Shown piece by piece: positions 59,301 through 63,031 of a stretch of DNA of 64,000 bases. How positions within the stretch are numbered: position 1 is the first letter of the stretch; every line of letters starts with the position of its first letter. The notes below the pieces were generated by a model that saw only the letters and a list, made by a program, of their open reading frames with translations, made no database searches and was not told the DNA's origin. The stretch is from contig NMRA01000317.1 in the NCBI GenBank assembly GCA_002633005.1, positions 169,300-233,299 of the forward strand. The letters run 5' to 3'. Position numbers and translations under genes: made by a program. The DNA is from Phoronis australis (Eukaryota; Animalia; Phoronida).

Positions 59301-62300
59301 CCAAGTTCAAACAAAATCTATAACCAAAATTGCCCTTGTTCGGTTTCATTTTTCAAGGGCTTCTAAAATCATTGTGAATCCCCACATTTTTTTAAAATAT
59401 TGACTGGTGATAACTATGATACAGAAATGGAAAAGCATTAGTTTGGAGCTACATATCTAAAGGGAAAAATGAGTATCACCATGGTCAAATCAATCCTTAA
59501 CCTTACGCTTATTGTTATCATAATTGTTGTAGAGAAGTTGCTTTTAGATGCATTTGGGAACAATACATCTTACAATAAGGTAACTAGCAGTAGTTATACT
59601 CAGGAATCTGAAAAAAGATGTCATTGGTTGTTATATGAGATCTGACAGAGACGTGTTTTACCATTTTAAGCCTGGGAAACAGACTGCATCCATTTGCCTG
59701 TCTACTACAGCTAAGTGCCACCCTTGTATTCTGAACCTATTCACATTTGAACACACATGTTTCCGGTGCACTCATATTGAGGCCTACGCCTCGATTTCTC
59801 AGTTTCTCAATTTAAATACCCCGAGATTCATTGTGAGCAATACAGATCGCAAAAAACTAATTGCACATTTTAACAGACTTAATGTCCCTTATCAAGTCTG
59901 TTTCAGTGTTTACAGTGGAGGGATGAGCAGTACATATCATGACTTACTTGTTGTGGAGTCTGAGTTGAGAGCAATATCCAGAGCACTGGTCACTGACTGG
60001 AACAGATTCATTCGCTGAGTATCACCTAAGAAATGAACACATGAACAAATAAACATTTAGAATACAGAAAATATGGGCTAGAAAAGTACGCAATTTATAC
60101 AGTTGTATAGAACTTCATTATCAATATTTCCCCTTCAGTTTCAAATGCAGATGTTGGTCTAGTTTCTTGTTAAGCACTCTCTGCACAGTCTTAAGTCCAG
60201 CATCACATGCACCCACATTGATACACAAGTCATTATAAATCCACCATGTTTCAAAGAGTTACAGCTGAAGTCGTTGCTGAAGTGATACTTGCTCTGCTTA
60301 AAACAAAAGCAACATGGAATGACAGCATTCATGATAATGCCCTGGGTTGCTGCAAGCAGTTTTTGTACACTGTATCTAAGGATAAACTGCAAGGTAATGT
60401 GGAACAGGCCACATTTCTAATGTTGCACTACGACCCTCACGGACAACACAATTGGCAAATGTGTTACAGTATTCATGCATATTCTGCAATTTCTAAATGG
60501 TTAAGACAAGAACAGCAAAAAAATAATGCCCAGCATCAGCTTCATGGCAGTTATAGAACAGGTCAAAAACTCCAATGACTTTCAGTTATGTCAGTCACTT
60601 ACTGACACAGTAGTGGCAACATCTTTTGGATCATGCAAACAAAATGATGAGCAATAAGCAATATATGTGTTTAGATAATAGTGCACCAGTTTGATTTACT
60701 AATAGCACTAAACAAGAACTGTTCAACAAGTTGCCTAGTTCAGATAACCAATGTGTTCGATCCATCACAATACTCGCTTTGAATACATTTGAGTACACTT
60801 CACTTTAATGAAAACATGACTGTCTGCACAACGCAAGGGAAAAAAACAAATATTCCCAAGATGCCAGGGGTGTTACTCTCAAGGAAAACTGGTTCACAGG
60901 ACATGCTGCTTGCGACTTATCAAAACCAATTTCCCTACAAAAAGGGTGTCTAAAAATTCCATACAAACGGGTGTGTTTTCTGAATTCATTCCAGACAACA
61001 AACTGGTCATAACTCTACAAAAGGCTCCTTTCCAACCAGACAAGTTTTAAAACTGTGCTTGCAAAACATGGCATCTCTTTCATGGTTTCAGGCTTTATAG
61101 GTTAAAAAGACACCTGTCCAAAATCCCAACGTACCACTAGGGGTGTTGATTTTTTAACAAAGATGACTTTTTCGTAGAAGTTCTCTACAAATGGGTCCTT
61201 TTAGTGCTTTCTACATGTTTTGGACATCTTCATTTTCCAGATGAACCAGAACTAGTTCATATGACTGATATCAAAGCTGGGTTGCTAGTTGAGCTATCCT
61301 ACCAGCTAGGTTTCAAAACTTGCAGGGTGATTATTTCACTATCGCCAGCTACCGGCGATAACTATTGATAGGAATAGCTATATCCAAGCAGACCTCCAAA
61401 TATGCCCCACATTCCACGCACAGAGTGCATGAACTTAAAATCCTGCATAATCTCAAGATTGCGTGTGTGAACTTGGAATTGAATATTCATTTGGGCAATA
61501 AGGTGAAATTTTTGTTGAGTATAAATATTTTTTTTTGTAATTGTTGGCCTCATGATCAACCATTTTCTCTTATTCCGTAACTTGTGTCAAATAATCGAAA
61601 GAATATTATGTGAATTGTTGAATCAATCATTGTTTGGTGAAAAAGATTACCAATCATTGAAAAAACTTTGGTAAAATCAAAATTTACAATATTTATATAC
61701 ATGTTATTTAATTTTGTGCAGTGCAAACTTTTATTAACATGATCATGATTATTTGAGTGATCTTGTCACATTTCATCGTGTATTCCAAGTTTACATACAC
61801 GAAATCTTGAGTTTAAGGAGGATTCCAAGTTCAGGCACAGCAGACCAACCTGTGTCTTGTCCCACTCCTACCTGGGTTTTCCGTAGATTAGCCCACCCGA
61901 TGGGCGTTTATTCGAAAAATTATGCCAAATACATGCCAATGGGCGTTTATTTGGTAAGTGTTACAACTTGTGGTGTCAAGTGTGCAGTGCAGTGGGAGAT
62001 TTATTTGGAAATTTTCCTCTTTAAAGCCCACTCAGCGTCAACTTTTCGTCACAAATTTAGTTTTGTGGAGTATTTATCATATATAAAAACAAACAAGGCG
62101 TTGGCGAACTATGTGTTGCAGATGTGCTTCCGGTGAATCATATGAGCCTTTTGTTAGCTACTCGCCAACGGGCAATTGCCTATTAGCTGAATGGTTAACA
62201 CACTCGCCAGTTTTATGGGAGTAGCTAGTTCGATTCCCGGATGGGGTAATCTCGGCTATTACTACAAATGGCACCGATGAAGCACTGCCTACTAGTACCC

Positions 62301-63031
62301 GCGGACCTCAGGACGGCGCGCATGGAAGGTTCCAGGAGTCAAGGACCTGTATGAGAGACTACCTTGTGTTCACCTGTGTTGTGGTGGTAAAGGTACCAAG
62401 GGAGGCTGATGTCCTGTATGTGAGACATCCTGGTGTTCACCTTCCTGGTGGCGAGCCTGTTCTGTAGAAAAGGGGGGAATGTTGTGCTTCCGGTGAATCA
62501 TGAGCCTCTGTTAGCTACTCGCTAAGGGGCAATTACTTATTAGCTGAATGCATGGTTAGCACGCTCGCCGATTATATGGGAGTCAGTGGTTCGATTCCCA
62601 GGTCAGGTAATCTCGGCTATTACTTAGTAATTACTACATATGCATTTATTAAGAAAAGTTTTAAAATGCACCTTCAAGTAAACGAGTGTCAAGTCAAGCA
62701 AAACTATGGCTTTCCATTTTCACGCCCCCTTTTCCAAATAAACGCCTGGGCGTTTATTTGGTGTTGCTAAATCGCCTGAAAATTTTCATTTTCCGAATAC
62801 ACGCCCATGGGCTTATCTACAGGCAAGGCCAAAACACAAGGTCATTTCAGTTTCAAATGTCAAGACTCAGTAGCCCAAATCACAATTACCTAAAACAGGA
62901 GAGGGTTCATCCTGGACGTATGTGAAGTGTGAGTATTTTCTACAGAAACTGTAACCAACTTGAGAGCGATTTTTCAATTCAGGCAATAAAGGTCTTGCTC
63001 TTACAAGTGTACGCATAACCCGTAAGGCCAT
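53392..63031 (-). CDS. BCKDHB: 2-oxoisovalerate dehydrogenase E1 beta subunit, mitochondrial, ~374 aa
   Basis: Exons 62890-63031 (Arg-rich transit peptide), 59948-60025 ([12 protein letters not shown]), 59170-59238 ([18 protein letters not shown]), 58676-58809 ([12 protein letters not shown]...[14 protein letters not shown]), 58376-58531 ([12 protein letters not shown]), 57440-57611 (DPCIFFEPK), 56379-56524, 54143-54229 ([12 protein letters not shown]), 53392-53532 ([16 protein letters not shown]). Total 1125 nt. Confidence 0.97.
53560..53912. mobile_element. Diverged member of the same MITE family, copy 3
   Basis: TTCTTGAATTTGGGACGGGCAACATT...AAGCAAAATA...TTTCACTGTCCAAAACTTGAGTTTTTACCATA resembles 13678-13784. 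Confidence 0.45.
54310..55985 (-). mobile_element. Kolobok-like DNA transposon (non-autonomous, decayed THAP domain) in BCKDHB intron 7
   Basis: Perfect 15-bp TIRs AGGAGAATGCCACCC / GGGTGGCATTCTCCT with TTAA TSDs at 54306-54309 and 55986-55989; AG...CT termini. Minus strand ~55640-55822 carries frameshifted THAP motifs (CIIPTCPN...[15 protein letters not shown]). Confidence 0.8.
57591..57800 (-). repeat. ~45-bp tandem repeat of the BCKDHB exon 6 acceptor and exon start, 5 copies
   Basis: Minus-strand units resemble ATACAACTATATCTTTCTCTGCAG|GTTGTGATCCCCCAAGGTCC; the last copy is the real exon start. Confidence 0.85.
58975..59207 (-). repeat. ~97-bp tandem duplication including the 3' end and donor of BCKDHB exon 3, ~2.4 copies
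   Basis: GTATTTATCCTTAAGACCCACAGTGCATCTGAAGACA (59171) has diverged copies at ~59074 and ~58975. Confidence 0.7.
61881..62823. mobile_element. MITE-like non-autonomous DNA transposon hosting the TRIM
   Basis: Imperfect inverted ends CCGTAGATTAGCCCA...TGGGCGTTTATTCGAAAAAT (61881-61920) and ATTTTCCGAATACACGCCCATGGGCTTATCTACAGG (~62788-62823); internal TGGGCGTTTATTTGG sub-terminal repeats. Confidence 0.6.
62114..62638 (+). mobile_element. Non-autonomous LTR retrotransposon (TRIM) with tRNA-like cassettes in both LTRs (Helenus-like)
   Basis: LTRs 62114-62266 and 62480-62638 (TGTTG...CTACA); 4-bp TSD TATG at 62110-62113 and 62639-62642; PBS-like TGGCACCG 2 nt after LTR1; PPT AGAAAAGGGGGGAA 62466-62479; box A TAGCTGAATG and box B GTTCGATTCC in each LTR; no ORF. 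Confidence 0.85.

What the first reader, a model, noticed from the sequence alone, without database searches (positions are those of the whole stretch)
62114..62638. Complete mini LTR retrotransposon with tRNA-like Pol III promoters in its LTRs (Helenus/Cassandra-type), nested in a MITE
Seen: two ~155-bp direct repeats with TGT...ACA ends, flanked by an exact 4-bp TSD (TATG). A PBS-like TGGCACCG lies 2 nt after LTR1 and a purine tract abuts LTR2. The 213-bp non-coding interior has a ~30-bp internal duplication. Each LTR holds a tRNA-shaped cassette: box A at 62184-62194, box B at 62227-62237, and ATTGCCT...GGGGTAAT closing an acceptor-like stem. Established: plant Cassandra TRIMs carry 5S-derived Pol III promoters in their LTRs, and tRNA-carrying TRIMs named Helenus, with 4-bp TSDs in animals, have been reported. 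Inference: this is a Pol III-driven parasite mobilised by an autonomous LTR element (the 4-bp TSD suggests Gypsy), possibly an undescribed family. The diverged LTRs imply an old insertion. I could not assign the primer tRNA.
Basis: partly seen in the sequence, partly recalled or inferred. Interest (0 to 1): 0.8.

Follow-up and report, generated by a model that had tools for sequence, protein, structure and literature searches.

The report
Helenus mini-retrotransposon with conserved palindrome
This is a real, decayed copy of a multi-copy, non-coding jumping element of the Helenus kind described in 2024, with tRNA-type promoter boxes in both end repeats; it also carries a short palindrome, shared with published clam, ribbon-worm and fish relatives, that likely lets the element's RNA pair end-to-end or with a second copy.

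Summary
Confirmed. 62114-62638 is a 525-bp TRIM with TGT...ACA LTRs (153 and 159 bp), a TATG duplication, a TGG-starting PBS, a PPT, and box A/box B in both LTRs. Public reads show many other copies with the same two boundaries and unrelated flanks. One contig from a MITE copy lacking the element shows a single TATG. It sits in a MITE in intron 1 of a BCKDHB-like gene of a lophotrochozoan-like animal. It meets Kojima's definition of animal Helenus and matches no published family by motif search. The scan has noted this kind before on other DNA (35 findings, 15 or more genomes), but not this sequence. What is new: a palindrome just before box A, at the centre of a ~50-nt inverted repeat. By my by-eye count, 50 of 76 published non-insect animal Helenus LTRs and one Ajax LTR carry such a palindrome (chance about 3%), with compensatory changes and G-U pairs. 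The Helenus paper's text does not mention it. It likely pairs the RNA's ends or dimerises it. Pol III transcription, the primer tRNA and the partner element are untested or unassigned.

The parts
62110..62113 (+). left target-site duplication TATG
   Evidence: an empty MITE site with one TATG, table 5c
62114..62266 (+). 5' LTR (153 bp, TGT...ACA)
   Evidence: depth steps and mixed loose ends at both limits
62124..62135 (+). U3 segment complementary to the PBS-proximal interior (12 bp with a 2-nt bulge); candidate cyclisation pairing
   Evidence: -20.7 kcal/mol; 1.75% of random 24-mers do as well against the whole LTR
62152..62200 (+). imperfect inverted repeat: U3 arm against the box A/D-arm region, centred on the palindrome
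   Evidence: -17.9 kcal/mol, z -3.64, 1 of 200 shuffles as good
62170..62181 (+). loopless palindrome GGGCAATTGCCT at the predicted Pol III start, 14 nt before box A
   Evidence: strongest self-pairing 12-mer in the element, 0.02% of 5000 window 12-mers as strong; shared with published Helenus
62184..62194 (+). Pol III box A (LTR1)
62211..62214 (+). T4 run in the anticodon-like loop; candidate weak Pol III terminator
   Evidence: function inferred
62227..62237 (+). Pol III box B (LTR1)
62269..62276 (+). PBS-like TGGCACCG, 2 nt after LTR1; primer tRNA unassigned
   Evidence: no published Helenus PBS starts this way
62267..62479 (+). 213-bp non-coding interior with a 39-nt internal duplication
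   Evidence: multi-copy in reads
62466..62479 (+). polypurine tract abutting LTR2
62480..62638 (+). 3' LTR (159 bp); box A at 62541 split by a 4-nt insertion, box B 62588-62598, palindrome decayed, 11 extra nt near the end
62639..62642 (+). right target-site duplication TATG
61871..62820 (.). host MITE, multi-copy, TA at its left end, right terminal repeat shortened in this copy
62890..63031 (-). first coding exon of a BCKDHB-like gene; the element lies antisense in intron 1, about 250 bp from the donor
   Evidence: stranded RNA depth; gene name recalled from domain order and motifs

Best explanation
This is a decayed copy of a multi-copy, non-coding LTR element of the animal Helenus type, likely transcribed by RNA polymerase III from the tRNA boxes in its 5' LTR and likely copied and inserted by the proteins of an autonomous Gypsy element, with a palindrome at the predicted start that would pair the RNA end-to-end or with a second copy. 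SHOWN: the LTR-PBS-interior-PPT-LTR anatomy, the 4-bp duplication, many other copies with the same limits, box A/box B at tRNA spacing, and a ~50-nt inverted repeat centred on the palindrome. SHOWN BY EYE on published sequences: the palindrome recurs with compensatory changes in most non-insect animal Helenus. INFERRED: (1) Pol III starts at or near 62170, so the RNA begins with the palindrome and runs through box A/B, PBS, interior and PPT into the 3' LTR. (2) The U3 arm of the inverted repeat is transcribed only at the 3' end, so it can pair with the 5' palindrome and D-arm and close the RNA into a rod; the PBS-proximal/U3 pairing nests inside it. This would align the short R repeats for strand transfer, like Ty1 CYC5:CYC3, or start dimerisation for packaging, like Ty3 PAL6. 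(3) The same 3'-only hairpin may turn a weak T run into a terminator in the 3' LTR but not the 5' LTR. (4) A CCA-ended tRNA primes at the TGG; the 2-nt spacer fits integrase trimming. This copy inserted into a MITE in intron 1 of a BCKDHB-like gene and both LTRs have since drifted.
For: Anatomy. Copies: in run X1 summed depth rises from about 500 to over 36,000 at 62114 and falls from 33,000 to 6,500 after 62266, against about 45 on unique flank; loose ends at both limits are mixed in 2 of 2 DNA runs (agreement 0.38-0.41). Empty site: one X1 contig runs from 62113 straight into the letters that follow the right TATG (table 5c). Helenus definition and 4-bp TSD in animals: PMC10886601, whole text read. 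Palindrome: by-eye count on its Data S1: 17 of 18 chordate, 30 of 51 bivalve, 3 of 3 nemertean, 0 of 3 brachiopod, 0 of 1 ctenophore LTRs, 50 of 76 in all; chance 2.7-3.1% per site. Ten of the 16 possible palindromic central tetramers occur, and the clearly homologous fish families change both sides together. End-to-end pairing of the predicted RNA: about 27 bp expected, reached by 1 of 40 and 0 of 40 shuffles. Precedents, passages read: Ty3 and Ty1 palindromes and cyclisation, Cassandra super-hairpin, hairpin-assisted T4 termination in yeast.
Against: No dedicated transcript was seen: RNA reads cover the LTR on both strands, 81-90% run on into unrelated sequence, and no start or end pile-up was found in 3 of 3 RNA runs, although these libraries are poor for short Pol III RNA. 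The overall folding energy of the predicted RNA is ordinary (9 and 16 of 40 shuffles as low). In LTR2 the palindrome fails the criterion and the inverted repeat has z -0.31, and its T4 is lost. 26 of 76 published LTRs fail the criterion (6 are near misses), so the module is not required by all Helenus. The criterion was set after seeing the sequences, and the families are not independent. The T4 lies 10 nt from the hairpin; yeast data show an effect at 0 and 7 nt and none at 18 nt. The zebrafish LTR has no T4. The PBS matches none of the published Helenus PBS types. No autonomous partner was found or searched, as no genome was held.
Confidence: 0.8

Rival explanations
1. An ordinary Pol II-driven TRIM whose LTR carries a passive tRNA-SINE relic; the boxes are kept by descent and not used.
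For: No Pol III transcript was seen. The cassette is not a readable tRNA. Helenus Pol III activity is unvalidated in the original paper.
Against: Most reads keep canonical box A and box B at tRNA spacing while the arm between them varies among copies. The same selective conservation is reported for Helenus.
Confidence: 0.12
2. It is a Helenus TRIM, but the palindrome and inverted repeat are a by-product of fold-back duplication or template switching, or act as a DNA site or only as a termination hairpin, not as an RNA-RNA pairing signal.
For: LTR2 of this copy gained an 11-nt piece that is largely an inverted copy of adjacent letters, so template switching occurs here. The minus strand folds as well as the plus strand (z -3.38 against -3.64). 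A third of published LTRs lack the module.
Against: G-U pairs are tolerated and the central letters, which would be a hairpin loop, stay self-complementary in ten different forms. Homologous fish families change both sides together (by eye). A protein site would keep its sequence.
Confidence: 0.3
3. Self-priming (Tf1-like, recalled): the LTR segment complementary to the PBS region is the primer, not a tRNA.
For: 62124-62135 pairs with the PBS region over 12 bp. No tRNA type could be assigned.
Against: The pairing leaves the TGG unpaired, whereas TGG two letters from the LTR is the signature of a CCA-ended primer. The segment lies upstream of the predicted start. Other interior 24-mers pair with the LTR more strongly (-25.2 kcal/mol).
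Confidence: 0.08
4. Two independent SINE insertions or a local duplication that mimics an LTR element.
For: The two repeats differ by about 13% plus indels.
Against: Both have TGT...ACA ends and no tails. Family-wide limits are sharp, the interior is multi-copy, and an empty site has one TATG.
Confidence: 0.02

Closest known systems
Animal Helenus (TRIMp3), Kojima 2024, PMC10886601; nearest in layout: bivalve families such as Helenus-5_PeMa, -4_ArIr, -1_CGi, -1_PiNo, nemertean Helenus-1_LiLo, coelacanth LTR1_LCh/LTR2_Lch
   Same: Under 1 kb, non-coding, tRNA box A/B in both LTRs, PBS and PPT, 4-bp TSD, LTR length in the bivalve range; same order of hairpin, palindrome and box A.
   Different: No family match by 12 short motifs (four single hits, none in a matching context). 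PBS type not among those listed. No T run after box B. Host appears not to be a listed species, but its class is unresolved.
Ajax (Kojima 2024)
   Same: Ajax-1_LiLo has a hairpin, a palindrome and a tRNA box A-like 11-mer ahead of its 5S part (by eye); Ajax-1_NGe is a near miss.
   Different: 5S-derived promoter, 5-bp TSD.
Cassandra (plants; PMC7215508 section 2.4 and passages read)
   Same: Pol III-type promoter in the LTR; self-complementary LTRs predicted to fold the element into a super-hairpin.
   Different: 5S-derived and plant-specific; Pol III transcription shown there, not here.
Ty1 PAL/CYC5:CYC3 and Ty3 PAL6 (PMC4974528, PMC11381356; passages read)
   Same: Palindromes near the RNA 5' end for dimerisation and 5'-3' pairing for reverse transcription.
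   Different: Autonomous, Pol II-driven yeast elements with 6-nt palindromes; analogy only.

Membership tests
Helenus (animal) | TRIM: two LTRs, under 1000 bp, no protein | tested here: met
   525 bp; no Pfam match in the ORFs of 70 aa or more that overlap it
Helenus (animal) | tRNA-derived sequence with boxes A and B in the LTRs | tested here: met
   boxes in both LTRs 32 and 36 nt apart, the only such pairs in the window; tRNA origin rests on boxes and partial arms, not on ARAGORN or Rfam
Helenus (animal) | PPT next to the 3' LTR | tested here: met
Helenus (animal) | PBS complementary to a tRNA 3' end | tested here: inconclusive
   TGG start at the right place and typical of the family, but no match to published PBS types; host tRNAs not available
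Helenus (animal) | 4-bp target-site duplication | tested here: met
   TATG on both sides; an empty site with one copy; TSDs of other copies not readable
Helenus (animal) | Interspersed multi-copy family with fixed termini, solo LTRs | tested here: met
   solo LTRs inferred from LTR depth well above twice the interior depth, not shown one by one
TRIMp3 | Pol III transcription from the LTR | not testable with these tools
   RNA-seq reads are uninformative
Helenus (animal) | Gypsy partner sharing the PBS | not testable with these tools
   no genome held
Cassandra / Ajax | 5S rRNA-derived promoter in the LTR | tested here: not met
   no Rfam match at E<=10; tRNA-type box B present
Retrozyme or ribozyme-bearing LTR | hammerhead or twister ribozyme in the LTR | tested here: not met
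   0 Rfam matches at E<=10 on 62100-62650; a divergent ribozyme is not excluded
tRNA-derived SINE | starts at the tRNA head, ends in a tail, variable-length TSD | tested here: not met
   70 bp precede box A, TGT...ACA ends, no tail

The most novel reading that the evidence does not exclude
Most animal Helenus, and Ajax, share an undescribed RNA signal: an LTR built as a mirror around the Pol III start, with a covarying loopless palindrome at its centre. It is how a Pol III parasite with no sequence likeness to its helper pairs or dimerises for packaging and strand transfer, and how it may stop only in the 3' LTR. Its presence in bivalves, ribbon worms, coelacanth, sturgeons, carp-like fishes and this host would point to one ancient or horizontally spread lineage rather than the separate origins proposed.
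Probability: 0.45. Interest if true: 0.62.

Novelty: new member of a known kind. Interest (0 to 1): 0.42.

Why it matters
The element itself is one more family of a kind described in 2024. The Helenus paper states that it is not known how a TRIM depends on its autonomous partner and that LTR homology is not needed. A covarying palindrome at the predicted start gives a small, directly testable candidate for the packaging or strand-transfer signal. It offers a possible answer to how Pol III reads through one LTR and stops in its twin. It also gives a character for asking whether mollusc, nemertean and fish Helenus and Ajax share an origin.

Tried and rejected
No whole genome was held, so no search for full-length copies, their TSDs, host tRNAs or a Gypsy partner. 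No other copy lies in the window. The metagenome scan with a 19-nt LTR motif gave 2 hits, both GC-rich loci with no similarity beyond the motif: chance. ARAGORN and Rfam gave nothing. No indexed RNA holder on record was listed; no inference drawn. Host lineage: an EXOC8 exon gave 5 hits among 6 candidates at 68%, the 3 named ones caenogastropods. The 781-aa ORF gave nothing in one search and 11 hits in another; of the 10 looked up, the 2 named were a brachiopod and a nemertean. A capping-protein exon did not discriminate (77-85% across animals). The class stays open. Literature: Helenus+tRNA+TRIM+LTR, TRIMp3, TRIM+palindrome+dimer+Pol III, Cassandra+palindrome, Helenus+retrotransposon from 2024 found no description of the palindrome. 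The Helenus text has 0 hits for palindrom, hairpin and dimer; its figures are not held, and Repbase and Dfam were not searchable. biv-TRIM (PMC6934838, part 1 of 5 read) differs: 202-218 bp repeats, 77-80 bp interior. Wasp and fungal Helenus were not tallied; Data S1 parts 2-4 (fungal) were not read. Summed contig depth was not converted to a copy number, and no age was computed as no rate is known.
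Full report
Observation. LTR1 is 62114-62266, the interior 62267-62479 and LTR2 62480-62638, with TATG on both sides, a TGG-starting PBS at 62269 and a purine tract before LTR2. The LTRs differ at 19 of 145 aligned sites (K2P 0.146) plus indels. 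The only box A/box B pairs in the 64-kb window, both strands, are the two in these LTRs (consensus patterns recalled). ARAGORN and Rfam see no tRNA or other RNA family, so the tRNA likeness is limited to the boxes, their spacing and partial arms.

It is a real interspersed family. No genome was held, so I laid public runs on the locus. Summed contig depth in run X1 is about 45 on unique flank, 3,000-22,000 on the interior and 6,000-250,000 on LTR1. The tool warns that this is no copy number; it does show many copies and an excess of LTR over interior. Depth steps fall at 62114 and after 62266. Contigs leave the alignment there into unrelated sequence: 30 and 30 contigs before 62114 (agreement 0.39, 0.38) and 20 and 24 behind 62266 (0.41, 0.39) in X1 and X3, which are one sample. 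Several contigs join 62113 to the right half of the MITE, and one shows the letters between, which begin with those that follow the right TATG (tables 5 and 5c). The target is therefore duplicated, and the MITE is older than this insertion. LTR1 departs from the majority of reads at about 11 sites, consistent with decay after insertion. TSDs of other copies could not be read.

Context. The element lies antisense in intron 1 of a gene with transketolase-type domains and motifs of BCKDHB (name recalled), about 250 bp from the first donor. Protein hits point to a lophotrochozoan: named hits were caenogastropods for EXOC8 and a brachiopod and a nemertean for the 781-aa ORF. A capping-protein exon did not discriminate. 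The class is unresolved, so I do not claim a range extension.

Comparison with Helenus. I read the whole text of PMC10886601 and supplement parts 1 and 5-11 of 11; figures are not held. The element meets the definition: under 1 kb, tRNA boxes in the LTRs, PPT, 4-bp TSD as in animals. Twelve short motifs gave four single hits in unrelated contexts, and the PBS fits none of the listed types, so it is likely an unlisted family; Repbase and Dfam were not searchable. The scan has 35 earlier notes on this kind in at least 15 genomes and none on this sequence.

The palindrome. LTR1 has GGGCAATTGCCT at 62170-62181, 14 nt before box A, where a type-2 Pol III promoter would start (established spacing, recalled). 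It is the strongest self-pairing 12-mer of the element. It is the centre of an imperfect inverted repeat, 62152-62200, in which a U3 arm mirrors the box A/D-arm region (z -3.64, 1 of 200 shuffles). Reading Data S1, I saw the same order of hairpin, palindrome and box A in many families. I counted by eye a 10-nt, or 11-nt odd, self-complementary stretch with at most one G-T ending within 3 nt of box A. It is present in 17 of 18 chordate, 30 of 51 bivalve, 3 of 3 nemertean, 0 of 3 brachiopod and 0 of 1 ctenophore LTRs: 50 of 76, with 6 near misses. Ajax-1_LiLo also meets it. The same test is met by 3.0% of window positions and 2.7-3.1% of random sequence. Ten of 16 possible palindromic central tetramers occur. 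Among the carp-like fish families, which share an almost identical interior, both sides change together. The criterion was chosen after seeing the data, families are related, wasps and fungi were not tallied, and no script checked the count. The paper's text has no hit for palindrom, hairpin or dimer, and five searches found no description. Self-complementary LTRs have been predicted for Cassandra, so the idea has a precedent.

Mechanism. Shown: anatomy, family status, boxes, inverted repeat. Inferred: Pol III starts at the palindrome and ends in the 3' LTR, so the U3 arm occurs only at the RNA's 3' end. The predicted RNA pairs its first 35 nt with its last 75 nt over about 27 bp, reached by 1 of 40 and 0 of 40 shuffles for two candidate ends, though its total energy is ordinary (9 and 16 of 40). 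A 12-bp pairing between the PBS region and U3 nests inside this, at modest significance (1.75%). This would work like Ty1 CYC5:CYC3 or the Ty1 and Ty3 dimer palindromes (passages). A self-complementary centre with G-U tolerance favours pairing between two copies of the palindrome over a hairpin loop or a protein site. A 3'-only hairpin could also activate a weak T run; in yeast a hairpin 0 or 7 nt, but not 18 nt, upstream aids T4 termination (passages). The T4 here is 10 nt away and fish LTRs lack one, so this step is the weakest.

Against. Three RNA runs show LTR reads on both strands that mostly run on into other sequence, with no start or end pile-up: no support for a dedicated transcript, from libraries ill suited to see one. 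LTR2 of this copy has lost the palindrome, the fold and the T4. A third of published LTRs lack the module. The primer tRNA and the partner are unknown.

Verdict. A genuine new family of a known kind. The shared covarying palindrome is the part worth following. It is cheap to confirm by alignment and by RNA pairing assays on natural copies.

Noticed in passing
window 61425-61838: A second multi-copy MITE-like element with 45-nt inverted ends (82% complementary) lies directly left of the host MITE in the same intron.
   Followed up: partly
window 45023-47368 (-): 781-aa open frame with no Pfam match; weak N-terminal relatives, the named ones in a brachiopod and a nemertean.
   Followed up: partly
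window 42447-42847: Tandem array of an 18-nt unit, open in several frames.
   Followed up: no
window 8715-8990 (-), 23337-25467 (+), 31915-36566 (-), 53395-63031 (-): Exons of a C1-domain protein, F-actin capping protein beta, EXOC8 with introns, and a BCKDHB-like gene.
   Followed up: partly
PMC10886601 Data S1, Helenus-2_SyJa and -2_SyUm LTRs: Both wasp LTRs seem by eye to hold a hammerhead ribozyme core (motif recalled) downstream of box B, which would link Helenus to retrozymes.
   Followed up: no
PMC10886601 Data S1, Ajax LTRs: A tRNA box A-like 11-mer with the upstream hairpin and palindrome precedes the 5S part, so Ajax may be a Helenus-5S chimera.
   Followed up: partly
PMC10886601 Data S1, LTR-11_DR: A 12-nt stretch of the zebrafish interior just after the PBS is complementary to a stretch of its LTR U3, like the PBS-proximal/U3 pairing here.
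   Followed up: no
window 62625-62635: 11 extra nt at the end of LTR2, largely an inverted copy of adjacent letters, absent from other copies.
   Followed up: partly
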